58,425 nt of DNA from a virus (taxonomy: Duplodnaviria > Caudoviricetes): positions 1-58,425 of the IMG/VR virus record IMGVR_UViG_3300030376_003371; one strand, 5' to 3'. Below are positions 3,001-45,802 of this stretch, in pieces. Position numbers and translations under genes: made by a program. How positions within the stretch are numbered: the stretch's first letter is position 1; each line of letters begins with the position of its first letter. Below the pieces are notes generated by a model. That model saw nothing but the letters and a program-made list of their open reading frames with translations. It had not been told where the DNA came from and ran no database searches.

Positions 3001-6000
3001 ATAGTTTGGTCCGCTATTTGTTGTTCTGTAAGCTTGACCTTTTTTCTCTTGTTGGAGTTGATAAGCTTTTGCTCAAATGCTTTTACTCTTTTATATAGTT
3101 TAAGTCCTGATTCTACACCACCTTCTATATTGGTAAAGCTTTTAGGAAGAGTTTTAAATAAATTAACATCTACTTCCATTATCTTATTGACTAATTTGGC
3201 AGGATATTTTTTAACTCTTACTAAGAAATCTTTTATTACCTCGTCTCTAAAGTTAGAATCTCTTGACTCATTTATAATATCAGTTATTTCTTTTTGTTGT
3301 CTACCTCTTCTTGAAGTAACTTCTTTTACTCCTGAACCATAAGGTGCTACCTTTTGACTAGTAGTAGTTCTACCTGCACCCTCCATTGACTCTCTCATTT
3401 CCTTTGGCATCAATTCAAATGCATCAATCTTTGTGTCAGGAACACCTACAACTTCTCCAAGAATAGTATTGGTATAAGTAGAATGGTTAGAACCTTCCTT
3501 GACTCCTGTTGGTTTTAACACCATCATGATATCATTTTGTTGGAAGTTGTTCTCTGCATAGAAACCATCTCTAAAAATTTCAGGGTCAATAAAACCATCC
3601 AACTCTTTAACGAGTTTGTGATATGCTGTGTTAGGAGTTTTACCTTGAGCAATATGCGCAATCAAAAAGTTTTTTCTTACTGAACCATCAGCTTCTTTTA
3701 TTTCTTGCCAACTATCATACTCTGTTAGCACATCTCTAACACCCTTAACAGGTTTAGTTTCTAATGCCTTCTCTTTAAATGTAGCGTAGTCGCCAAGCTT
3801 ATCTGTATATTTATCGTATACCTTTTTATTAAACAAGTGACTCTTTGATGGTGAGCCACTAATAATAAATATATAATCAGCTTTGCCTATATTTTTTTCA
3901 AGTGTTTTTTTAGTTAAACTACTTGCCCATATTTCACCTTCTTTTTGTAGTGCGTAACTTGGACCTGCATCTATATCCATCTCTGCATCTAAACCTAATT
4001 GGTCAGCTACCCAAAACCAAACCTTCTGACCTTTGTCTGCAATGGTATCAATTAATGAATCAATATCAATTTTTTTAGCAGAGCTTACTAAGGATAGGGG
4101 GTACGAGTCTTTAAATTTTATCTTCTGTTGTCGCCCTTTACTCTTTGGTTTTACAATAGTAGTTGGATTACCTATTGGGTTTGTACCATTATCAAGTTCT
4201 TCTAATGTAGCTATGTCAGCTTGTTCAATCTCTTCACCGGTTCTAGTTTTTCTAGCTAAGGTGTTTAATAAATCAATTATATCTCTATCAGTTTTTGTAA
4301 ACTGTGAACCTAAGTCAATTCCAACTTTTGAAGCCATACTTTTTATAAAGTTTACAATGGCATTTTTAGATGGCTTAGTTAAACTCTTATAGTCTGATGC
4401 CATCATTCCAAATAATTCTGACAATGCTTCTTCATTAGCTATCGACATACCTTCAGATTGGTATGCTCTTTCAAACGCATCCATTCTGTTTGCCATCAAA
4501 CTATTTTTATCTAACGTCTTACGAACAGAGCCAATCATTTTAGTTACTGCTTCAGCAGTTTTAGTCTCTCCTAAAGTATTAAATAACACAGCATGAAAAA
4601 CCTCATGAGGTACAGTTGTAGCTGTAGCTCCTTCAAGATTAATGTGAATAGTATTATTATCAAAATCAAAAAAACCTCTACCTTCAGGAGCAACTTTATT
4701 AAACTCGTCTATAGATTCATGAAGAACTATTTTTGTCTTAGGTAATATTGTCTTGATAGAGTTGGCTGCTTTGGACGCAATGTCAATCACCATTCCTCTC
4801 ATAGATTTTAAATCAGGTGTAAGCTCACTACCTCTTTTTCCTTTTCTATTAAAGAATAAATTGTTTTGAGTAGTCGTTTCTGTTTGAGTTTCTTCTCCAA
4901 AGAATCCTTCAATATCAGCTCGTTCTTCTGTTGTTACATCAGTATCTTCTTGAACCTGCTCATCAACTTGCTCTTGAACACCAAGCTCAGGAATTGATTG
5001 CTCTAATTTGTTTTGATTTTCTAAGTTTGTTTCCGCTGTACTTTGAATACCTTCAAGAGCAGTATTAATATCATTTACTCTTGCCTGTTCCTTTTTAACT
5101 AGCTCAGGTGCTTTACCTTCCATTTTAGATTCTAAGGTTTGCTTTTCTAATAGTAACTGTAAAGCTTCTTTTTTCTGTTGAGTCGTATAATCTGTAGGTA
5201 CTTTAGGAGCAAGACCTTCTAACTGCTCAAAGTTTTTTAATTCTGCGTCTGCTTCTTTCTGTGTTTTTGTTCCGGCTGCTACCTCTTGTTTTAGTTTGGT
5301 AACAAACATAGTTTTATATTGAGGGTCAGACATGATGCCTTCAAAGATTTTAAAGACCCCATCATCTACTTCAGGCAATTTTCCTCCCGCAGCCATGTTT
5401 GAAACAGCAGGTATCACACCTAATGTAAAACCACCGACAGCTTCTTGAGCACCGGCATACATCATTTGAGATGCAACGTCTATAAATGTATCAGGGTTTT
5501 GAAATAAATTTTTTCCTTTAGATGCATCAAATATTTCTTTAATACCTATCGTTGCGCCTTCTTGCAAGAATCCTGTTTCAAATTCTGCAAGTCCACCTGC
5601 ACCTATTGTAAGAACTCCTCGTGCAACCATCTGCTTAACATCTTGTCTTATAAATTCTTGAAATGTTTTTGCTGTAGTTTTTTCCGTAGATTGACCTAAA
5701 GCTCTAGCAATCACACCGTTTAACAATCCTTTTTGTTGAACAATGTTTCTAAAACCTATAGCTTCTAATGCACCTACTGCAAGACCTACCGGTACTTTAA
5801 CAAAATACTTTTCATTCTCAGTAATCTCATCAAACGCAGGGTCCTTTGACATCTCTTGGTCTATGTGGTCACTAGTAAGAGCATACATCTGTGCTGTTCT
5901 TTGAATCATACCGGGGATTCCTTTACCACCAATCATGGCAGGTAAAGATTCTGCAAGACCTAAAAATGCACCACCCCAAAAACCTTGCTTTTGAAGATTT

Positions 6001-7616
6001 GCCCATTGCTCTGTAGTAGATTGGTCTCCCAACACTTGTACCATACCTGCTCTTGTAGCGTCTAACATTCCCATTTCAGTATCAAAATAATTTGACTGTA
6101 CAGAAAATGGATTACCCGCAGGTCTTACATTACCTGTTGTTCTAAATCTATCATACGCATTTGGACCATAATACTTTATAGCTTTTTTATAGGCATCTTT
6201 AGTTCTGCTTATAGAAGACTCAACTAAATTTTCTCCATCTTCAGTTGTAAGATTACTTAAAATACTTTGAGCCTCTTTAGCATCATATTGTGATAGTGAT
6301 TTGCTTAATGCAATCTTGTCTTCTTCCGTTAGTTCGTTTTTATTAAGTAAACTTTTTATTTCATCTGACCCCTCTCCTTTTCCTATATACTGATACTTTT
6401 CAGGAGACTCTATAAACCTTCTAAGCGCATCATTAGTTATATCACTTTGAAGACTAGCTTCGTTATAACCCATCTGCATAGGATTTACTTCAACAAAAAA
6501 GTCTGTCATTACATCTACTGCTTGTGAAGCGAATGAAGAAGCTCCTTTCATCGCAGCATTCCAAAGACCACCGGACCAAGTACCTTGTGTGCTTTGCATT
6601 TGCACATATCTACCTACCTCTTGGTCAAGTAGTGCACCCTTTTCGGAAAAGGTTTTTTCTTTTTCTTGAAGCTTACTGAAAGCTCCCATCAAATCTTTTT
6701 TCTGATTAATATATGTTTGATAGGCTGCTTTTTTTTCAGGGTTACCTTTTATATCACTAGCAGAAAGACCTGCGAATTGAGCTTCATATAACTTATCAAG
6801 CTCTGCTTTGGCATTTGAAAACTCAACTACTTCTTGTCTAAAGTTTTCTGTCTGCTCATTAAAAAGTTTAACAGTAGCTTCTATTTCTTTTTCATCTCTT
6901 ATTTGCTGATTCTTCTTTTCAATTCTAGAAGTGGTTGCAGCTAGTCTATTTTCTGATTCAACTCTGTTTTTTTCCAAAAAATTTCTAAGCTTTGCAGCTT
7001 CTGCTGTTTCAGTTGCACCCATCATAGGGTCTAAGTCTATAGATATTTTTTCTCCATTTGCAGATTGAACAACCATTGCATCTCCGATACCTGTCTCTTC
7101 AAAAGTAAAACCATAATCATTGAATCTATAGTTTAAATCAGGCACAACGAACTCTTCTTCTTTGTCTATAAGTTTATTGGTAATAGTGCTTAAGCCAACA
7201 TCGAATGGGTCTTCGATTTCATCAGCTAATAGAGTTCCTGCAAAAGGGTCTTCAACTTCTTCCTCTGTAATAGATGATTCCGATGAAACATTTTCTGTCT
7301 CCGATTGTAAAGGTGATTCCAAACCTTCGGGGACTTCGGGTAGATTTGGTTGGTCCAATCCGATTGGATTTTTTTTTTCCGGGTCATCTGTCGAGACAAT
7401 CTCCGTTTCTTCTACAACATTAGTTGAATCTCCAAAGCCAACAAGGGTCTTGAACTGATTAATATCTTTCTGATAACCCTCACCTTTAGCAACATTATAC
7501 ATATTGTTAAGTGCCTCTTCATTAGACCCCATCAAAACTTTAAAGTCTTCAAAAGATTTAGAGTAGCCTTCTGCTTGTGCTAAGCTATATAATTGTTGTA
7601 CTGCCTCTTCGTTCAT
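1..7616 (-). CDS. Giant (~2600 aa) virion ejection/polyvalent protein with a zincin metallopeptidase motif; 5' part, continues across the origin to 58139
   Basis: ATG at 7616 (MNEEAVQQLYSLAQAEGY...). Open frame read by hand to base 1. HEVFH at 4593-4607 followed by EEALSELFG. Last gene of the ejection cluster. Absent from the ORF track because it runs off the edge. Confidence 0.88.
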   Translation of the reverse strand, partial: MNEEAVQQLYSLAQAEGYSKSFEDFKVLMGSNEEALNNMYNVAKGEGYQKDINQFKTLVGFGDSTNVVEETEIVSTDDPEKKNPIGLDQPNLPEVPEGLESPLQSETENVSSESSITEEEVEDPFAGTLLADEIEDPFDVGLSTITNKLIDKEEEFVVPDLNYRFNDYGFTFEETGIGDAMVVQSANGEKISIDLDPMMGATETAEAAKLRNFLEKNRVESENRLAATTSRIEKKNQQIRDEKEIEATVKLFNEQTENFRQEVVEFSNAKAELDKLYEAQFAGLSASDIKGNPEKKAAYQTYINQKKDLMGAFSKLQEKEKTFSEKGALLDQEVGRYVQMQSTQGTWSGGLWNAAMKGASSFASQAVDVMTDFFVEVNPMQMGYNEASLQSDITNDALRRFIESPEKYQYIGKGEGSDEIKSLLNKNELTEEDKIALSKSLSQYDAKEAQSILSNLTTEDGENLVESSISRTKDAYKKAIKYYGPNAYDRFRTTGNVRPAGNPFSVQSNYFDTEMGMLDATRAGMVQVLGDQSTTEQWANLQKQGFWGGAFLGLAESLPAMIGGKGIPGMIQRTAQMYALTSDHIDQEMSKDPAFDEITENEKYFVKVPVGLAVGALEAIGFRNIVQQKGLLNGVIARALGQSTEKTTAKTFQEFIRQDVKQMVARGVLTIGAGGLAEFETGFLQEGATIGIKEIFDASKGKNLFQNPDTFIDVASQMMYAGAQEAVGGFTLGVIPAVSNMAAGGKLPEVDDGVFKIFEGIMSDPQYKTMFVTKLKQEVAAGTKTQKEADAELKNFEQLEGLAPKVPTDYTTQQKKEALQLLLEKQTLESKMEGKAPELVKKEQARVNDINTALEGIQSTAETNLENQNKLEQSIPELGVQEQVDEQVQEDTDVTTEERADIEGFFGEETQTETTTQNNLFFNRKGKRGSELTPDLKSMRGMVIDIASKAANSIKTILPKTKIVLHESIDEFNKVAPEGRGFFDFDNNTIHINLEGATATTVPHEVFHAVLFNTLGETKTAEAVTKMIGSVRKTLDKNSLMANRMDAFERAYQSEGMSIANEEALSELFGMMASDYKSLTKPSKNAIVNFIKSMASKVGIDLGSQFTKTDRDIIDLLNTLARKTRTGEEIEQADIATLEELDNGTNPIGNPTTIVKPKSKGRQQKIKFKDSYPLSLVSSAKKIDIDSLIDTIADKGQKVWFWVADQLGLDAEMDIDAGPSYALQKEGEIWASSLTKKTLEKNIGKADYIFIISGSPSKSHLFNKKVYDKYTDKLGDYATFKEKALETKPVKGVRDVLTEYDSWQEIKEADGSVRKNFLIAHIAQGKTPNTAYHKLVKELDGFIDPEIFRDGFYAENNFQQNDIMMVLKPTGVKEGSNHSTYTNTILGEVVGVPDTKIDAFELMPKEMRESMEGAGRTTTSQKVAPYGSGVKEVTSRRGRQQKEITDIINESRDSNFRDEVIKDFLVRVKKYPAKLVNKIMEVDVNLFKTLPKSFTNIEGGVESGLKLYKRVKAFEQKLINSNKRKKVKLTEQQIADQTIEYLQKQPEYKNEGDGSKGLTTKQAQLQVEFQRSVGTRTSESVQEKLTEARRMLQQRKRGAVDLQSVKVAMRNFLRKSLPADLYTRSEVMKLVRQITDAGSTAQIENLFNEIIEFVNTKNNVRLEKQIDNILNGKYETKQSGRKKAAKISLNIKERIQRIAKDRLSSTATAEDIENTNKNLTEEFNQIRQKNVLSEGDMSRLVDIQILLNLNNALTMENNDVNKTGSLDVALASLTEMIEQGRSELKQQLQDKHNEYNDEASIAIEDITGEKVDMGDPDARVELDSMNQKLRNKKQKRTKNIIAKFVNTLKTNVKKFFNETEALDGLMDLISKLPGEMFGGRLQELVTARVDASTRMYKGRMMQQEEILATKLEELYGKKWRNQVRAHNKPQVAYVLDPEAVAKAKENFNNDPSLKNKQILKEVLAENEVEMSQNEMLYYYNLYKDPANRGSFKATFGKDFARIMEEMEANMDDSIKEFGDWQVNEFYPSLYSHYNNTYKALYRTNMPWNRYYSGMIYRNDPQGNPIEQQPLDLLADKSIMNTSVGTSSTKARVQNNLPIRKMNSMNVMSTYLRDMEYFAAYGETINSINKIFSNKQVRESIAAIHGDYVNRLISNMIGKIANQGIRTNSADRFVNKMNNLFIFSRIGLNPTVMIKQLTSMITYGNDIGYGNWLKYSLKSVPQMIKTVKEISKNSVYMQDRNKQSITRIIESYSNDGMIEMVPNQYWDNYVNFIMYTTKFGDKAAIYLGGMPNYLYYKDQALKQGKTEQEAQQEAIVKFERDTKRTQQSMDLQDRDFYQTAGALQRGLNMFLTTPKQYLRKEIQSTRNLYRKVKAWDRNAGKGTLGQNLRTFVTYHLVAPVLFQYVALGLPGLLRPVRDEDDDDLLRAAIIGNLNALFIVGEVISGTADLLQGKPYAGESVRSIAPLMQLQRLLKLANRAMGTKDEEKAKEAFKKFYLEVAASTSLPAIQIDRFIKNIDKLGEGDTPADVLRILNFSPYV

Positions 7617-32669: not shown

Positions 32670-33623
32670 CTAAGGAGTACAGTTAGTAAAATTAGGTTTC
32701 GGTAAGGTCCAAGATGATGCACCGTCACTAAAATCAACACAATTGGTTACATTGTTTACTGCCCAACCACTTAAGTCTTGATTGAACGCAGTCGCATCTT
32801 CAAACATTTCCCTCATATTAGTTGCGCTACTCACATCCCAACCACTTATGTCTTGATTAAAAACAGGGTTCTTTTCAAACATAGATTGCATATTATTCGC
32901 ATTACCTACATCCCAAGAACTTATATCTTGATTGAATGTCATACTACTACCCCTGAACATACTATCTAGCCTGTTAGCAGAACTCACATCCCAACCTGAG
33001 ATATCTACATTAAAAGAGTTGGCACCAAAAAACATCTGATGAAACTCAAGTCCATTTGAAACATCCCAACCACTTATGTCTGCATCAAACAGAATAGCTC
33101 CATTAAACATAGTTGCAAAATCATCTACATTGCTTACATCCCAACTACTTAAGTCTTGGTCGAAAGCCTGACAATTACTAAACATTGCAGCCATATCATC
33201 TACATTGCTTACATCCCAAGAACTTATGTCTGAATTAAAAACCAAACATCCGTTAAACATTCCATTCATTCTAATAGCACTACTTGTATCCCATGAACTT
33301 AAATCGGGGTCAAAGCTTGTACAGAATCCAAACATTCCATTCATCTGCGTCATGCTACTCACATCCCAAGCTGAAAGGTCTCCGTTGAAATTAAACCTTC
33401 CATTAAAAGCAAGAGTGGCAGTAGTCACTTGACTAACATCCCAATCTTGAATTTTACCATAAGGGAATAGGTCGAAATTTCCGTTAACGTCTTGCGCTAA
33501 TATATCGTTTATTGCTGTTTGAAAAGTTGCATCTGTTAAGGGCACAGGAGGATTAGGACTAGGTTGTCCTGATTTGTTTTGTAAAAAACCTATGCCGGAT
33601 GCTATGCCAATTCCTGTTGGCAT
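32670..33623 (-). CDS. Putative head-spike fibre with DUF285/BspA-like 25-aa repeats
   Basis: About ten WDVS..M..MF....FNxDxS repeats; GIGIASGIGF N-terminal peptide; follows the spike-base gene. Confidence 0.8.
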   Translation of the reverse strand: MPTGIGIASGIGFLQNKSGQPSPNPPVPLTDATFQTAINDILAQDVNGNFDLFPYGKIQDWDVSQVTTATLAFNGRFNFNGDLSAWDVSSMTQMNGMFGFCTSFDPDLSSWDTSSAIRMNGMFNGCLVFNSDISSWDVSNVDDMAAMFSNCQAFDQDLSSWDVSNVDDFATMFNGAILFDADISGWDVSNGLEFHQMFFGANSFNVDISGWDVSSANRLDSMFRGSSMTFNQDISSWDVGNANNMQSMFEKNPVFNQDISGWDVSSATNMREMFEDATAFNQDLSGWAVNNVTNCVDFSDGASSWTLPKPNFTNCTP

Positions 33624-40629: not shown

Positions 40630-42228
40630 TTAATTTTTCTTTCTATGCATCGTAATGATTGCATTGGTTGATAATAATGTAACTGCTACGCTAACTGCAT
40701 TTTGTAAAGCGGACCTTGTTACTTTCACCGGGTCTATAACTCCCATCTTTATTAAATCTCCCCACTCTTCATTCTTTACATCTAATCCCTCACCCCATTT
40801 TCGGTCAGGATTCTTTTCATACAAGTAAACGTCCATTCCTGCGTTACGCAGTATTTGAACTAACGGAGCTTGTAACGCATTTCCTAAAATTGCGTAAGCA
40901 ATTTTTTTTGTTGAATTTTTGTCACACTCTTTAGACTTGTCTAAATATTCCTCGCCTATTGTAAACAATGACAATCCTCCCCCGGGGAGTATGCCTTCTT
41001 CTAGAGCTGACTTAACTGCACATACTGCATCGTCAACTCTATCGTATAGTTCTTTTTGTTCGAGGTCTGTATTACCTCCAACATAGATTACTCCTATACC
41101 TCCTGTAAGGGAAGCGATTCTTTTTTCTATAAAGCTTCTCAGCTGTTTATCTTTAGCTGCACTATGTTGAACCCATAACTCTTCTACTCTTGTATCTACT
41201 GCATCTTGATTTTCTGTAGCATCATCCTTAATGATGATACTTGAGTCACGACCAACTATCACCTTGGAACAATGACCCAAGTCACCAAAGTTTATCAAGC
41301 TCAAATCATCTCCGGTTTCGCCACTAAAGTAAGTAGCTCCAACTGCAAGAGCAATGTCGTTCATAAGTTCATGTTGTCTATAACCAAAGTCAGGTGGTGC
41401 AATGTTTACAATCTTAAGACTGTTCTTCATTACATTCGCTGCCATTGTGTTAATGAATCCTTGAGAGCATGGAGCAATAATCAATAACTTCTTTTGTTCA
41501 TTGATAATTGTTTTCAATACATTCTCAATTTGTAATATACTATTTATTTCGGTATCACATACAAGCACATGCACATCCTCATGTATACATTCGTCATGCT
41601 TATGGTTATTAATAAACAAGTGTGATGTCCACCCTCTATCTATCTTAATACCCTTTGTGCTTTCGTAATACGTCTCATGGGTTTTGGATTTCTCCACAGT
41701 CACTATCCCATCTTTACCAACTTCTTTATATACATCAGCTATTTGTTTTCCAATCTTCTCATCGTTGTTGGCTGAGATAACTGCAACATCTTTTAATTTA
41801 TTACCTGCTATCTTTTTACCTTTCTTGTGAAGCTGACTAATAATAGATTGAGATTCTTCCTGTAGTATTTTTAATACCTCAGTATTGTTGGTCTCCTCAT
41901 CTATTAATTCCATACCGGCTTTGACTAAAGCTTCGGTAAGTACAATTGCTGTTGTCGTTCCATCTCCTGCTGAGGTTGCAGTCTTATCAGCTGCTTCCTT
42001 CATGATACGAACCGCTAGGTTCTCCACAGCGTCTAAAAGAAAAATAGACTTAGCCACAGTCACACCATCCTTGGTTACTGTGATTCCATGTGTATGTTCT
42101 TGAGATTCAATGAGGACTGTATTTCCTCGGGGACCCAATGTAGACTTTACTGCCTTAGCTATTTGTGTTATACCGCTAAGTAACTTTTCTCTACCATCGG
42201 AATCGAAGTGTAGTTGTTTTGGATTCAT
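40630..42228 (-). CDS. groEL: Chaperonin GroEL
   Basis: TLGPRG, TKDGVTVAK, AGDGTTTA, DRVDDAVCAVKSALEEGILPGGG, GVIDPVKV; no GGM tail. Confidence 0.97.
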   Translation of the reverse strand: MNPKQLHFDSDGREKLLSGITQIAKAVKSTLGPRGNTVLIESQEHTHGITVTKDGVTVAKSIFLLDAVENLAVRIMKEAADKTATSAGDGTTTAIVLTEALVKAGMELIDEETNNTEVLKILQEESQSIISQLHKKGKKIAGNKLKDVAVISANNDEKIGKQIADVYKEVGKDGIVTVEKSKTHETYYESTKGIKIDRGWTSHLFINNHKHDECIHEDVHVLVCDTEINSILQIENVLKTIINEQKKLLIIAPCSQGFINTMAANVMKNSLKIVNIAPPDFGYRQHELMNDIALAVGATYFSGETGDDLSLINFGDLGHCSKVIVGRDSSIIIKDDATENQDAVDTRVEELWVQHSAAKDKQLRSFIEKRIASLTGGIGVIYVGGNTDLEQKELYDRVDDAVCAVKSALEEGILPGGGLSLFTIGEEYLDKSKECDKNSTKKIAYAILGNALQAPLVQILRNAGMDVYLYEKNPDRKWGEGLDVKNEEWGDLIKMGVIDPVKVTRSALQNAVSVAVTLLSTNAIITMHRKKN

Positions 42229-42772: not shown

Positions 42773-43156
42773 AGTATTATCTTTTGTTCACCTACAAAGA
42801 TAGTAAAATTTTATTTAGATACTCAGGGCATTTGGGTTATATATAGCGACACGCAACCCGACCCCCTCAGGAAAACGATATTTTTTTTGTTTGACCTTGA
42901 CATTTTCAAAATCGCATGTCTGATTTTTTTGCCTTTTTTTTTATGGGGTACCCTACCCCCTCTGTTAGTTGTAGTATTTTCTCCCTGTATACGTTACACC
43001 ACCATTCACCCCCTGTTGACCTCTGTCCTTCCCTCCGTTAGACCTTCCCCTAACCCACGCATGAACTGAACAAAAGTTTTAAAGAAGACCTTCCCTTCGT
43101 TAGTACCTGTATGAAGTCATTTGACCTAAAACAAAACTACATAATCTCACATAATT

Positions 43157-43181
43157 TAATTCATTGATAATCAGCGAGTTA
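43157..43181. promoter_or_regulatory. Double IHF-consensus site upstream of the early promoter
   Basis: AATCAGCGAGTTA (+) and TATCAATGAATTA (-) both match WATCARNNNNTTR. Confidence 0.5.
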
Positions 43182-43287
43182 AAAAGAAAATAACAAAATA
43201 ATTAAAAAAAAGTTTGGTAGTTAAATATATTTAGACGAGATTTGTTAAAAATTTAATAATTATTTAAACATTTAAACACTTACAATT

Positions 43288-43473
43288 ATGACACATTTAA
43301 ACACAAACGCAGTAACTGATAACACAATCACAAACAAGGCACAAGAGCAATTCCTTCTTGAAGACATAGTAGAGAGAGATTTTGCTTTAGGACTGATAAC
43401 TGAAGACGAGTACGAAGTAGAGATACAGAAAATCTACTATAGCTTTGCAGATTTATACGGATTTCCTGCGTAA
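43288..43473 (+). CDS. First early gene, small acidic protein
   Basis: 61 aa; leader TAAACACTTACAATTATG. Confidence 0.75.
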   Translation: MTHLNTNAVTDNTITNKAQEQFLLEDIVERDFALGLITEDEYEVEIQKIYYSFADLYGFPA

Positions 43474-43496
43474 ATCAAACAGGGGTCTTTGACCCC

Positions 43497-43546
43497 TCTG
43501 TCCAAGGGAATGTCCCTTGCTGATGAGACGAAGAAGTCGAAACAGA
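43497..43546 (+). ncRNA. Type III hammerhead ribozyme (HH1), predicted cleavage after C43502
   Basis: UCU-GUC, stem I CAAGGG/CCCUUG, CUGAUGA, stem II GAC/GUC, GAAA, CAGA closing stem III; complete canonical core. Confidence 0.92.
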
Positions 43547-43574
43547 AAATAATATATATATAAACACTACAATT

Positions 43575-43718
43575 ATGAAATCAATTTTAAACTTTAACAT
43601 CGTTGAAAAAGCAATCATGTTCACTCTAACGTCACTTGTGGCAGTAAGTTGGACAATGTTAGTCTTCCATATGTTAACAGAAGGAATTGTTGCATCCTCA
43701 TTCGGTATTTACGGATAA
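43575..43718 (+). CDS. Small membrane peptide (47 aa) between the two hammerheads, not in the ORF track
   Basis: MKSILNFNIVEKAIMFTLTSLVAVSWTMLVFHMLTEGIVASSFGIYG; leader TAAACACTACAATTATG nearly identical to that of 43288. Confidence 0.8.
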   Translation: MKSILNFNIVEKAIMFTLTSLVAVSWTMLVFHMLTEGIVASSFGIYG

Positions 43719-43724
43719 ATCAAC

Positions 43725-43752
43725 AGAACCTGAGCAAGTTCTTAAACTGCTT
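43725..43752 (+). ncRNA. Predicted H-type pseudoknot directly 5' of HH2
   Basis: Stem 1 AGAAC/GUUCU, stem 2 GAGCA/UGCUU, linker UAAAC. Confidence 0.6.
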
Positions 43753-43801
43753 CTGTCGTAAGGTGTGTACCTTACCTGATGAAGCAAAAGCAGAAACAGA
43801 A
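43751..43801 (+). ncRNA. Type III hammerhead ribozyme (HH2, variant stem II), predicted cleavage after C43757
   Basis: UUCU-GUC, stem I GUAAGGU/ACCUUAC, CUGAUGA, A-GC-AAAA-GC-A, GAAA, CAGAA. Confidence 0.8.
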
Positions 43802-43822
43802 ACTTAAATTAAATCTTAAACA

Positions 43823-44758
43823 ATGAGTAACACAAACGCAGTCGCAAAGAAAGTAAAAGCTACACTTCTTGAAGGACTTAAAAAAGATGGCTTACAATGG
43901 TTCAAACCATGGAAATCAGGATTAAATTTTCCTATCAATAACAAATCAGGTAGAGCATACCGAGGTTTTAATACTTTCATCCTGAACGCTGAGATGAAAG
44001 AGAAAGAGTACAAGTTTAACGAATGGGATACCTTCAAGAGCATATCATCAAGAGGTGGTAAGGTCAACAAAGGTGAGAAAGGAACAGACGTTTATTTTTG
44101 GTTAATATCTTATACTGCCATGGGTGGTTCAGGTAAATGGTACAGAACCAAAGCCGAATGTATGAAGAATGAAAATTGTACTGAAGCAGATATATTTACT
44201 AATTTCAATCTGAGATTCTACAGAGTTTGGAACATCGCACAATGTGAAGGTTTGTCTCCAAGAAGAATAGAAGACGAGACGAAAGTTGTACACGAGCCAA
44301 TCGAAAGTTGCGAGAATATAGTATCTAACTATAAAAAGATAGCTAAGAAGTTGCAAATCGTTGAATTAGAGCAAGATAAAGCATACTATTCACCTTCGAA
44401 AGATAAGATAGTGATGCCACTAAGAAGTCAGTTTAGTAAATTAGATAAATTCTATCACACACTATTTCACGAAATGGTTCATTCAACAGGTCATGACTCA
44501 AGGTTAAATCGTGAAGGAGTTGCTACGGCAAATATGTTAAACAAGACCAAACATGATTATGCATTTGAAGAGTTAATTGCTGAGTCAGGTGCAATGATGT
44601 TGTCAGGTATGTCAGGAATTGAAACCAAAGACGAAGACAAGCAGAGTCAAGCGTATGTTAACGGATGGGTCAAAGCAGTAGAGAAAGCCAACGAGAAAGC
44701 AGTTGTATCTGCTCTAACGCAGTCAGCCAAGGCAGTTGACTACATCTTAGGAGAGTAA
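43823..44758 (+). CDS. ardC: ArdC-like antirestriction/ssDNA-binding protein with a zincin domain
   Basis: WFKPW...PINNKSGRAYRGFN...WDTF...GGKVNKGEKG...VWNIAQCEG; AYYSPSKDKIVMP; TLFHEMVHSTGH..RLNR; YAFEELIAE. Confidence 0.92.
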   Translation: MSNTNAVAKKVKATLLEGLKKDGLQWFKPWKSGLNFPINNKSGRAYRGFNTFILNAEMKEKEYKFNEWDTFKSISSRGGKVNKGEKGTDVYFWLISYTAMGGSGKWYRTKAECMKNENCTEADIFTNFNLRFYRVWNIAQCEGLSPRRIEDETKVVHEPIESCENIVSNYKKIAKKLQIVELEQDKAYYSPSKDKIVMPLRSQFSKLDKFYHTLFHEMVHSTGHDSRLNREGVATANMLNKTKHDYAFEELIAESGAMMLSGMSGIETKDEDKQSQAYVNGWVKAVEKANEKAVVSALTQSAKAVDYILGE

Positions 44759-44768
44759 TCTCCTTACC

Positions 44769-44813
44769 TTCAGGAATGGTTGCAAGGGGGTTCGATTCCC
44801 CCTCCTGAAACTA
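44769..44813 (+). ncRNA. Minimal tRNA mimic TL1 (acceptor stem plus T arm only)
   Basis: TTCAGGA/TCCTGAA 7-bp stem, 10-nt linker ATGGTTGCAA, GGGGG-TTCGATT-CCCCC, then A-CTA. Confidence 0.75.
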
Positions 44814-44835
44814 ATTTAATTTAATATATATAACT

Positions 44836-44949
44836 ATGAATGCAAAACGTTTAGGCAAGTTAGCCAAGAAAATTCAAAACATCATGTTGGTTGTGATACC
44901 ATCGTATTTTATAATCAGGATACTTGTATCCGTAATCTTTGGAGTATGA
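44836..44949 (+). CDS. Small membrane peptide (37 aa), not in the ORF track
   Basis: MNAKRLGKLAKKIQNIMLVVIPSYFIIRILVSVIFGV; ATGA overlap with the next gene. Confidence 0.7.
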   Translation: MNAKRLGKLAKKIQNIMLVVIPSYFIIRILVSVIFGV

Positions 44950-45173
44950 TATATATAATTAGCATGAAATCAATGTGGGGTAATTACAGGACGTTCCTAA
45001 AGGACTTCAATGATGAGCAACACATGAACAATTGGGTGAACCTTATGATTAGAAAAGGTCATAAGATTATAGGTGTACAACGTCAGTACATGAACATCGC
45101 AAAACATCGCAAGGAAATGCAGTTGGAACATAACCAAGCTAAAGCAAGGCGAATAAGAAAATATAATATATAA
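44946..45173 (+). CDS. Hypothetical early protein
   Basis: 75 aa, translationally coupled. Confidence 0.7.
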   Translation: MIYIISMKSMWGNYRTFLKDFNDEQHMNNWVNLMIRKGHKIIGVQRQYMNIAKHRKEMQLEHNQAKARRIRKYNI

Positions 45174-45193: not shown

Positions 45194-45225
45194 CTTGCAT
45201 ATGTCGAAATTTTGTCGTATGTTTG
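45194..45225 (+). promoter_or_regulatory. Bacteroidota sigma-A promoter
   Basis: CTTG ... TATGTTTG (45218-45225), about 18 nt before TL2. Confidence 0.7.
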
Positions 45226-45242
45226 TCGAAATTCTGATTAAA

Positions 45243-45316
45243 AGTAGGAGCATGGTGCAAGTAGAGGGAGTTGAAAACCCTTGAAAATTGAAGTTCGAAT
45301 CTTCATCCTACAACTA
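45243..45316 (+). ncRNA. Degenerate tRNA-like element TL2
   Basis: GTAGGA/TCCTAC acceptor, GCATGGTGC mini D-arm, GAGGG-AGTTGAAAA-CCCTT arm, TGAAG-TTCGAAT-CTTCA T arm, then A-A-CTA. Confidence 0.7.
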
Positions 45317-45709: not shown

Positions 45710-45802
45710 GAACAGGTGCTACCTTGGTGGTCGGAGTGGTTTGTAAGATTTGACACATACGTTAGTTTAAAAACAGAGGTTCGAATCCTCGCCTGTTCTC
45801 TA
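45710..45802 (+). ncRNA. tRNA-like element TL3 with a non-canonical interior
   Basis: GAACAGG/CCTGTTC 7-bp acceptor, GAGG-TTCGAAT-CCTC T arm, then T-CTA. Confidence 0.65.

What the first reader, a model, noticed from the sequence alone, without database searches (positions are those of the whole stretch)
43503..43757. A 255-nt RNA encoding one membrane peptide would be excised by the two ribozymes
Cleavage at both sites releases a fragment with a 5'-OH and a 2',3'-cyclic phosphate. It contains the full leader and ORF of a 47-aa hydrophobic peptide. These ends are the substrate of RtcB-type ligases and of hammerhead religation, as in retrozymes. Inference: a phage-derived circular or otherwise long-lived mini-mRNA, possibly for superinfection exclusion or host takeover.
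Basis: inference. Interest (0 to 1): 0.7.

Follow-up and report, generated by a model that had tools for sequence, protein, structure and literature searches.

The report
Two hammerhead ribozymes bracket a phage gene
Two self-cutting RNA motifs in a marine phage flank a tiny membrane-protein gene and probably chop a long transcript into single-gene messages, a known phage habit; nothing shows that the piece becomes a circle.

Summary
Two type III hammerheads lie on the + strand: HH1 at 43494-43549 (cut after 43502) and HH2 at 43749-43803 (cut after 43757). The bracketed fragment, 43503-43757, is 255 nt and holds a 47-aa ORF.

A model built only from other phages finds exactly these two sites in the whole window, and helix covariation is strong. 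The ORF belongs to a small conserved membrane-peptide family.

The circular, retrozyme-like reading is not supported:
- The fragment folds no better than shuffles.
- The phage encodes no RtcB, RNA ligase or reverse transcriptase.
- No RNA reads were available.
- Relatives carry the same peptide gene in other slots without hammerheads.

The wider picture is a punctuated operon. Hammerheads and tRNA-like minihelices occupy gene borders and replace each other at the same slot in relatives. Most hammerheads are preceded by a stable hairpin.

Hammerheads flanking single phage genes, one set including an anti-restriction gene, were described in 2011. That study also sought circles and did not detect them.

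In passing, the 3' end of the fragment carries a pseudoknot-like element (CCUGAGCAAG...AAACUGCU). It recurs just after stop codons in many phages and bacteria and matches no Rfam family.

The parts
43288..43473 (+). Upstream gene p61 (61 aa), first gene of the + strand operon
   Evidence: ORF list. Homologs lie directly upstream of the hammerhead in L001, L002, L003, L004 and L007.
43482..43496 (+). GC hairpin GGGGUC-uuu-GACCCC whose 3' strand runs straight into stem III of HH1
   Evidence: Sequence and fold at -10.1 kcal/mol in the 40-nt window. The same arrangement is seen in L002, L003 (two sites), L004 and L007, and in L001 by eye. In all, 75 of 112 distinct hammerheads have it.
43494..43549 (+). 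HH1, type III hammerhead; cleavage between C43502 and C43503
   Evidence: Rfam RF00008 at 35.3 bits, E 7.6e-6, below the gathering score of 48.5. R3 at 58.0 bits. Covariation in A3 and A12.
43503..43757 (+). Predicted 255-nt double-cleavage product (monocistronic p47 RNA)
   Evidence: Arithmetic from the two cleavage sites. Fold z +0.22. Shortest of 46 hammerhead-to-hammerhead intervals examined.
43550..43574 (+). AU-rich leader ending in AAACACUACAAUU before the ATG
   Evidence: The same leader motif precedes p61 and p370.
43575..43718 (+). p47, a 47-aa peptide with one hydrophobic segment
   Evidence: ORF. Maximum 19-residue Kyte-Doolittle mean of 1.94. Three near-identical and 5 distant relatives. 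No Pfam or PHROGs family.
43725..43752 (+). Pseudoknot-like element: stem AGAA/UUCU around the loop CCUGAGCAAG, then UAAAC-UGCUU. It starts 6 nt after the p47 stop and overlaps HH2 stem III by 2 nt.
   Evidence: R2 at 45.4 bits, though the window is in the training set. P1 covaries in 38 sequences. It recurs in viral and bacterial contigs. No Rfam hit.
43749..43803 (+). HH2, type III hammerhead with a 2-bp stem II and an A.A at 10.1/11.1; cleavage between C43757 and G43758
   Evidence: R3 at 64.4 bits. The closest relative, L005 1293-1349, has covarying stems I and II and a U.U at 10.1/11.1. The 10.1/11.1 position is unpaired in 25 of 63 of the class. Not found by Rfam at E<=10.
43823..44758 (+). 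ArdC-like anti-restriction gene (311 aa) directly downstream of HH2
   Evidence: PF08401 at 1.6e-20 and PF18818 at 2.2e-27. phrog_7245, anti-restriction protein, at 1.3e-58.
44769..44810 (+). tRNA-like minihelix (acceptor UUCAGGA/UCCUGAA, T arm GGGGG-uucgauu-CCCCC) in the next gene border
   Evidence: Fold. Partial Rfam tmRNA 3'-end hit at 44786-44802, E 0.011. Conserved with covariation in L002 and L004, and in L001 by eye. ARAGORN calls no tRNA.
45710..45800 (+). Second tRNA-like element (GAACAGG...CCUGUUC with a uucgaau T loop) before gene p370
   Evidence: read by eye and not modelled.

Best explanation
The two hammerheads are RNA punctuation marks in a co-directional phage operon (p61, p47, ArdC-like and further genes).

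Proposed mechanism:
- As the polycistronic RNA is made, each ribozyme folds and cuts itself. The transcript falls into single-gene messages while RNA polymerase carries on.
- The 255-nt piece is the linear message for p47.
- Its 5' end is a hydroxyl followed by the folded ribozyme body (stems I and II), then a short AU-rich leader.
- Its 3' end is a cyclic phosphate eight bases after a compact pseudoknot-like structure.
- The upstream p61 message ends in a GC hairpin stacked against the cut.
- The hairpin or pseudoknot therefore plays the part a terminator hairpin plays at an ordinary 3' end, protecting against 3' exonucleases. It may also help the short stem III to form.

What is shown: the motifs, their conservation and covariation, the anatomy of the units, and the exchange of hammerheads with tRNA-like elements at the same slot.

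What is inferred: cleavage in vivo, the stability of the products, and the protective role of the 3' structures.

p47 is a small single-pass membrane peptide of unknown role.
For: Ribozyme identity:
- R3, built without the window, gives exactly 2 hits in 58425 bases on both strands.
- In 63 related hammerheads, 96.1% of cells pair, 13 of 16 pairs change on both sides, and 0 of 500 shuffles reach the covariation score.
- The 9 local copies give 95.0% paired and 11 of 16 pairs.
- The positional homolog in L001 reaches Rfam's gathering score of 48.5 bits.

Punctuation:
- 80 viral loci were picked by a hammerhead pattern and yield 117 hits.
- These give 45 same-strand intervals of 343-2496 nt. Many hold one ORF that starts 60-90 nt after the cut. 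Duplicate phages were not removed.
- In five relatives' whole records, this hammerhead type occurs only 1-2 times, always beside ArdC.

Interchangeability at the border after ArdC:
- The window, L002 and L004 carry a tRNA-like minihelix with covarying stems. L001 does too, by eye.
- L003 and L005 carry a hammerhead at that border.

3' structures:
- 75 of 112 distinct hammerheads have a hairpin of -8 kcal/mol or better ending within 6 nt of stem III.
- The mean MFE is -13.0 against -5.05 for 655 control windows, p 4e-32.

Gene status of p47:
- It shares a leader with p61 and p370.
- Five distant relatives have E<=1e-3 in 1.84 billion proteins, at 48-57% identity, with a conserved LVAVxWxMLVFH...FGIYG.

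Prior art: Perreault 2011 describes hammerheads flanking single genes in prophages, with cleavage in vitro and in E. coli, and ardA just downstream of a hammerhead (passages read).
Against: - No RNA evidence of any kind exists for this phage. Cleavage, product size and stability are all inferred.
- HH1 is below Rfam's gathering score and HH2 is invisible to Rfam.
- HH2 has only two Watson-Crick pairs in stem II and an A.A next to the core. In fungal-virus hammerheads, a helix II of 1 bp or none cut slowly in vitro, at about 1e-2 to 1e-3 per min (passage read). HH2 may therefore cut slowly, and a p47-ArdC bicistronic RNA could dominate.
- R3's training set was gathered with R1, which contained HH2, and with a pattern fixing CUGUC...GAAACAG. 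The test is not fully independent.
- The protective role of the hairpin or pseudoknot rests on position alone.
Confidence: 0.65

Rival explanations
1. This is the first reader's idea: the 255-nt product is closed into a circle. Closure would come either from hammerhead religation or from a host RtcB ligase, giving an exonuclease-proof mini-mRNA.
For: - The ends have the right chemistry (established knowledge).
- Read from the sequence, the fragment's 3' end UUCUGUC can pair with the stem III 3' strand of HH1 at its own 5' end (ACAGAA). That gives 6 pairs, one more than HH1's native 5, so a nicked complete hammerhead can re-form.
- RtcB exists in a Bacteroides control genome.
Against: - The fragment is no more structured than shuffles (MFE -44.5 against -45.45 +/- 4.27, z +0.22). 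Viroid-like and retrozyme circles are highly structured (recalled).
- No RtcB, RNA ligase or reverse transcriptase is found in the phage.
- The matching stem III follows simply from the two ribozymes being paralogs.
- Relatives keep p47 homologs without hammerhead flanks.
- Relatives swap hammerheads for tRNA-like elements.
- Perreault 2011 did not detect circles from such arrangements.
Confidence: 0.1
2. Only HH1 cuts efficiently and HH2 is a slow or regulated variant. The main products would then be p61 RNA and a p47-ArdC bicistronic RNA, with the 255-nt species minor or conditional.
For: - HH2 has a 2-bp stem II and an A.A at 10.1/11.1.
- Perreault's screen rejected such mispairs unless activity was shown (passage).
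- Hammerheads with a helix II of 1 bp or none cut slowly in vitro.
- The pseudoknot-like element shares two bases with HH2 stem III, so the two folds could compete.
Against: - The 10.1/11.1 mismatch occurs in 25 of 63 members of this phage class.
- L005 keeps it (as U.U) while stems I and II covary. Selection therefore maintains this form.
- Short-helix-II hammerheads were still cleaved in vivo.
Confidence: 0.2
3. The ribozymes matter mainly as conserved DNA joints. Recombination between similar hammerhead sequences moves single-gene cassettes between slots and phages, and RNA cleavage is secondary.
For: - Relative to L001 and L002, the window has exactly one extra hammerhead-to-hammerhead unit.
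- The 5' side of HH1 with its hairpin matches the 5' side of the single L001 hammerhead. The 3' flank of HH2 (cuuaaauuaaa...AUGAGUA) matches its 3' flank.
- p47 homologs sit in a different slot in L001 and L002.
- The 5' part of HH2 with the pseudoknot follows ArdC in L005.
Against: - A pure DNA joint would not need 96% base pairing with compensatory changes or an intact catalytic core.
- This reading is compatible with the best explanation and does not replace it.
Confidence: 0.15

Closest known systems
Clustered hammerheads flanking genes in prophages (Perreault et al. 2011, PLoS Comput Biol, PMC3088659; passages read)
   Same: - Several hammerheads lie close together on one strand, flanking single genes or short blocks in phage DNA.
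- An anti-restriction gene lies just downstream of a hammerhead.
- The proposed role is processing of long transcripts into single-gene mRNAs.
- A circular product was considered and not detected.
   Different: - Here the anti-restriction gene is ArdC-like, not ardA.
- The host is probably a marine Bacteroidota (a guess from leader and promoter-like motifs only).
- The bracketed unit is very small, at 255 nt.
- The 3' hairpin or pseudoknot before the cut and the swap with tRNA-like elements do not appear in the passages I read. I did not read the whole paper or its supplements.
Retrozymes and viroid-like circular RNAs with type III hammerheads (passages read; listing only for PMC4918200)
   Same: Type III hammerheads bound a unit of a few hundred nucleotides, and the ends are suitable for ligation.
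   Different: - The fragment has no excess structure.
- It carries an ordinary ORF with a leader.
- No reverse transcriptase is present.
- It is embedded in a DNA phage operon.
- No circle has been shown.
tRNA punctuation and RNase P processing of polycistronic RNA (mitochondrial punctuation model; MALAT1-mascRNA 3' end with a protective triple helix). All recalled; not read here.
   Same: Structured RNA elements at gene borders define the ends of mature RNAs. A stable structure sits just upstream of the cut.
   Different: - Here self-cleaving ribozymes and tRNA-like minihelices are used side by side in a phage.
- RNase P cleavage of the minihelices is inferred, not shown.
[quoted passage not shown]
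   Same: Hammerheads lie just upstream of ORFs, some with a very short helix II, and yield subgenomic RNAs whose 5' end is the cut site.
   Different: Those are type I hammerheads in RNA genomes of eukaryotic hosts, linked to cap-independent translation. This case is a DNA phage.

Membership tests
Hammerhead ribozyme, type III (Rfam RF00008) | Catalytic core CUGANGA ... GAAA, with an A15.1-U16.1 pair and a cleavable UH site | tested here: met
   Both sites have CUGAUGA, GAAA, A15.1-U16.1 and GUC (alignments).
Hammerhead ribozyme, type III (Rfam RF00008) | Three helices, with stems I and II closed by loops and stem III open | tested here: met
   - HH1: stem I 7 bp, stem II 3 bp, stem III 5 bp.
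- HH2: stem I 7 bp, stem II 2 bp plus an A.A, stem III 6 bp.
- Helices covary across 9 and 63 homologs.
Hammerhead ribozyme, type III (Rfam RF00008) | Score at or above Rfam's gathering threshold (48.5 bits) | tested here: not met
   HH1 scores 35.3 bits and HH2 is not reported at E<=10. The ortholog in L001 scores 48.5. The class-specific model R3 gives 58.0 and 64.4 bits.
Hammerhead ribozyme, type III (Rfam RF00008) | Self-cleavage activity | not testable with these tools
   No RNA reads for this phage and no biochemistry.
Clustered phage hammerheads that flank genes (Perreault 2011) | Two or more hammerheads on one strand, close together, bracketing one gene or a short block in phage DNA | tested here: met
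   The two sites are 255 nt apart and bracket one ORF in a virus record. The arrangement recurs in 45 other intervals.
Retrozyme / viroid-like circular RNA | Covalently closed circular RNA species | not testable with these tools
   No RNA holder was listed. Only contigs could be laid, and no joints were seen.
Retrozyme / viroid-like circular RNA | Highly base-paired rod or branched fold of the unit | tested here: not met
   MFE z-score +0.22; 110 of 200 shuffles fold at least as well.
Retrozyme / viroid-like circular RNA | Non-coding unit mobilised through reverse transcription | tested here: not met
   The unit carries a conserved ORF. No RVT_1 is found in the record.

The most novel reading that the evidence does not exclude
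The 255-nt RNA is a self-contained expression capsule with three parts: the ribozyme body at the 5' end, a shared leader and ORF, and a 3' pseudoknot.

The pseudoknot would belong to an undescribed, cross-phylum class (CCUGAGCAAG loop pairing with a downstream UGCUC). It sits a few bases after stop codons and is followed by a U-tract, a hammerhead or neither. The reading proposes that it marks RNA 3' ends made either by termination or by ribozyme cleavage.

Such capsules would be shuffled between slots bounded by hammerheads or tRNA-like elements. The matching stem III strands would allow the capsule to close into a circle.
Probability: 0.3. Interest if true: 0.7.

Novelty: new member of a known kind. 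Interest (0 to 1): 0.45.

Why it matters
The biological role of the many ribozymes encoded in phage and bacterial DNA is still described as open (review passage).

This phage group gives a compact and testable case:
- The same gene border is filled by a hammerhead in some relatives and by a tRNA-like minihelix in others. That argues for a shared job as processing sites.
- A stable hairpin or pseudoknot sits just before most cuts. This suggests the ribozyme makes a protected 3' end without stopping transcription.
- The 255-nt unit is small enough for direct tests of cleavage, stability, translation and circularisation.

Separately, the pseudoknot-like element found at its 3' end may be an uncatalogued RNA motif that is widespread in phages and bacteria.

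Tried and rejected
- **RNA evidence.** The look-up of sequencing runs listed no RNA holder. Four runs of uncertain kind hold 8-13% of the sampled words. Laying them gave only short Logan contigs from relatives, with no joints and no cover of 43513-43811. This says nothing about expression or circles.
- **DNA of close p47 variants.** A degenerate pattern from the peptide's N-terminus found nothing in viral contigs or metagenome contigs. The alignment A10 later gave one locus, L312.
- **Named phages.** blastn of 42800-45000 against 50,697 phage records gave no match.
- **Function of p47.** Pfam and PHROGs gave nothing. The best Atlas score was 0.83, below the 0.9 lead level.
- **Other hammerheads in the window.** The pattern matches at 33036 (+) and 40345 (-) lack the helices. 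R3 finds no third site.
- **Rfam identity for the pseudoknot-like element.** No family covers it in the window, in 14 other loci at E<=1, or in L303 at E<=10.
- **Literature by sequence string.** The search returned only unrelated primer matches among the 20 of 348 papers listed.
- **A fixed neighbouring gene for the element.**
  - Upstream ORFs match 7 different Pfam families, none in more than 2 of 34.
  - Downstream, the commonest family is a phage scaffold protein, in 5 of 32.
- **Second helix of the pseudoknot.**
  - It could not be tested statistically, because the search patterns fixed both strands.
  - Support is anecdotal, read by eye: L323 has GAGCG/CGCUC, and L307 and L317 have GAGCAU/AUGCUC.
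  - Two variants do not compensate (L088 and L096).

Full report
**What the window is**

The window is a whole IMG/VR virus record of 58,425 bases, estimated 99% complete. It has no match among 50,697 named phage records in the region studied.

**The observation**

Read directly, two sites on the + strand have the complete hammerhead core and type III topology.
- HH1 (43494-43549): stem III UCUGU/ACAGA, cleavage after GUC at C43502, stem I CAAGGGA/UCCCUUG, CUGAUGA, stem II GAC/GUC with a 6-nt loop, then GAAA.
- HH2 (43749-43803): stem III UUCUGU/ACAGAA, cleavage after C43757, stem I GUAAGGU/ACCUUAC, CUGAUGA, stem II reduced to GC/GC flanked by an A.A, then GAAA.

The stretch between the cuts, 43503-43757, is 255 nt. 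It holds one ORF of 47 codons at 43575-43718.

**Is it more than chance?**
- The core pattern occurs 4 times against 0.33 expected. Only these two matches have the helices.
- Rfam's Hammerhead_3 model gives HH1 35.3 bits, below the gathering score of 48.5, and misses HH2.
- The single hammerhead at the same position in the closest relative, L001, reaches 48.5 bits.
- I built a class model from four local copies (R1). I used it to collect 63 hammerheads from other viral contigs and rebuilt a model without the window (R3).
- R3 with filters off gives exactly two hits in the whole window, at 64.4 and 58.0 bits.
- In those 63 sequences, 96.1% of cells pair and 13 of 16 pairs show changes on both sides. 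No shuffle or slid register comes near. The nine local copies behave the same.
- The A.A beside the core in HH2 is not an oddity of this copy. Position 10.1/11.1 is unpaired in 25 of 63.
- HH2's nearest relative, L005, has a U.U there while its stems I and II covary.
- Caveat: R1 contained HH2, and the collecting pattern fixed part of stem III.

**Surroundings**

The + strand operon reads as follows.
1. p61.
2. A GC hairpin and HH1.
3. p47.
4. A pseudoknot-like element and HH2.
5. An ArdC-like anti-restriction gene (PF08401, PF18818, phrog_7245).
6. Further small genes.

The next gene borders do not carry hammerheads. They carry tRNA-like minihelices:
- 44769-44810: a 7-bp acceptor stem plus a T arm.
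- 45710-45800.
- Probably a third near 45237-45312, by eye only.

ARAGORN calls none of them a tRNA.

**Relatives**

Nine related loci were found through the ArdC-like protein.
- L001, L002, L003, L004 and L007 have p61, one hammerhead, then ArdC, with no p47 between.
- Alignment shows that the window has exactly one extra hammerhead-to-hammerhead unit. HH1's 5' side and hairpin match the 5' side of the single L001 hammerhead. HH2's 3' flank matches its 3' flank.
- The border after ArdC holds the tRNA-like minihelix in the window, L002 and L004, with covarying acceptor and T stems. L001 has it too, by eye.
- L003 and L005 hold a type III hammerhead at that same border.
- L003 and L009 also have type I hammerheads at other borders (by eye).

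Ribozymes and tRNA-like elements are therefore interchangeable border elements.

**The wider pattern**
- In the 80 loci listed, R1 finds 117 hammerheads, often in series on one strand.
- 45 intervals of 343-2496 nt typically hold one ORF that begins 60-90 nt after the cut. The window's 255 nt is the shortest (duplicate phages not removed).
- 75 of 112 distinct hammerheads have a stable hairpin ending within 6 nt of stem III. The mean MFE is -13.0 against -5.05 kcal/mol in 655 control windows, p 4e-32.

**The peptide**
- p47 has one hydrophobic segment.
- It has three near-identical relatives.
- Five distant representatives reach E<=1e-3 in 1.84 billion proteins. They show 48-57% identity and a conserved LVAVxWxMLVFH...FGIYG.
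- It shares the leader AAACACUACAAUU-AUG with p61 and p370.

So p47 is a real small gene.

Its homologs are not tied to ribozymes:
- In L312 the homolog follows a tRNA-like minihelix and runs straight into the next gene. No hammerhead is found in 3114 bases.
- In L001 and L002 the homologs lie after ArdC. The L001 one lies behind a tRNA-like element, by eye.

No function can be assigned.

**The circle**

In favour:
- The ends have the right chemistry.
- The 3' end of the fragment can pair with the stem III strand of HH1 at its own 5' end. That gives 6 pairs against the native 5, as read.

Against:
- The fold is no better than shuffles (z +0.22).
- The phage has no RtcB, RNA ligase or reverse transcriptase.
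- The peptide gene lives without ribozyme flanks elsewhere.
- Hammerheads are swapped for tRNA-like elements at the same border.
- Perreault et al. 2011 considered circular or spliced products of clustered phage hammerheads and could not detect them.

RNA data could not be obtained.

**What is known**
- Perreault et al. 2011 (passages read) describe multiple hammerheads flanking individual genes in prophages.
  - They propose processing into single-gene mRNAs.
  - They show cleavage in vitro and in E. coli.
  - They note ardA just downstream of a hammerhead.
- A 2019 review still calls the role open.

The finding is therefore a new member of a known kind. The passages I read do not mention the 3' hairpin rule, the swap with tRNA-like elements, or the frequency of the 10.1/11.1 mismatch. 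I did not read the whole papers or their supplements.

**Found in passing: a pseudoknot-like element at the fragment's 3' end**

The last 33 nt of the fragment carry a short stem around the loop CCUGAGCAAG, followed by AAACUGCU(C/U).
- The same element precedes the hammerhead in L005.
- An exact-pattern scan found 49 viral stretches.
- In 38 distinct copies the 3-bp stem covaries: 0 of 500 shuffles reach the score, and slid registers fail.
- The loop's GAGCA can pair with the downstream UGCUC, which would make an H-type pseudoknot. Because the patterns fixed both strands, this rests on a few variants read by eye.
  - Supporting: L323, L307 and L317.
  - Not compensating: two variants.
- The element starts within 19 nt of an upstream stop codon in 36 of 47 cases.
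- About 14 of the 50 listed are followed at once by a type III hammerhead. Many of the rest are followed by a U-run (by eye).
- It also occurs in bacteria of many phyla. That scan also returned coding false hits.
- It occurs in 24 of 151 genomes of one Saccharibacteria class at E<=0.01, many of them weak.
- No Rfam family covers it, and no paper was found by its sequence.
- Only about 3-4 of the 117 hammerheads in the independent sample are preceded by it. It is therefore a separate module.
- My reading, which is inference only: it is a structure that sits at RNA 3' ends made either by termination or by ribozyme cleavage.

**Verdict**
- Observation: confirmed.
- Interpretation: partly supported. 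A processed single-gene message is likely, but a circle is not.
- Novelty: a new member of a known kind, with some anatomy worth following up.

Noticed in passing
window 43725-43752 (+); also L005 1272-1300, L135-L182, L302-L338: A pseudoknot-like element has a 3-bp covarying stem around the loop CCUGAGCAAG, then AAAC-UGCUC, which can pair with the loop. It lies just after stop codons (36 of 47 within 19 nt) and is followed by a hammerhead, a U-run or neither. It is found in many phages and bacterial phyla, with no Rfam match and no paper by sequence.
   Followed up: partly
window 44769-44810 and 45710-45800 (+), perhaps 45237-45312; L002 3578-3618; L004 3946-3986; L001 about 3941-3985 and 4530-4597; L008 835-885; L312 about 1405-1445: tRNA-like minihelices (acceptor stem plus T arm, not called as tRNA by ARAGORN) sit at gene borders of the same operon. 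In relatives they occupy the slot that other relatives fill with a hammerhead.
   Followed up: partly
112 distinct hammerheads in L001-L096 and the window: A stable hairpin ends within 6 nt of stem III in 75 of 112. The upstream 40-mers fold at a mean of -13.0 against -5.05 kcal/mol for controls. It could protect the new 3' end or stack on the short stem III.
   Followed up: partly
alignment A12 (63 viral type III hammerheads): The 10.1/11.1 position next to the core is not a standard pair in 25 of 63. A published screen used this feature to reject candidates.
   Followed up: no
L003 about 4600-4680 and 6270-6340; L009 about 2915-2975: Type I hammerheads (stem III closed by a loop) lie at other gene borders of related phages. 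They were read by eye and are not found by Rfam at E<=0.1.
   Followed up: no
L059, L093, L079, L060 (viral contigs): Series of 4-5 type III hammerheads lie on one strand, spaced 390-560 nt in L059 and L093. Most of those units hold one ORF of about 90-140 aa; two L059 units hold two shorter ORFs.
   Followed up: partly
window 40630-42228 (-): The phage encodes a full-length GroEL-like chaperonin (532-aa ORF, phrog_5725 at 1.2e-130), transcribed divergently from the ribozyme operon.
   Followed up: no
window 45196-45237 and L001 4478-4518; window 43213-43245 and L006 about 470-500: Conserved intergenic blocks rich in UUUG (uugcauaugucg...uuugucgaaauucug; uuuagacgaRauuug) look like Bacteroidota-type promoters. 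This is by eye, and the consensus is recalled from memory.
   Followed up: no
L160 1840-1945 and 2877-2961 (+): Two RAGATH-1 hammerheads above Rfam's gathering score flank a copy of the pseudoknot-like element at 2324-2350 in an unrelated 187-kb viral contig.
   Followed up: no
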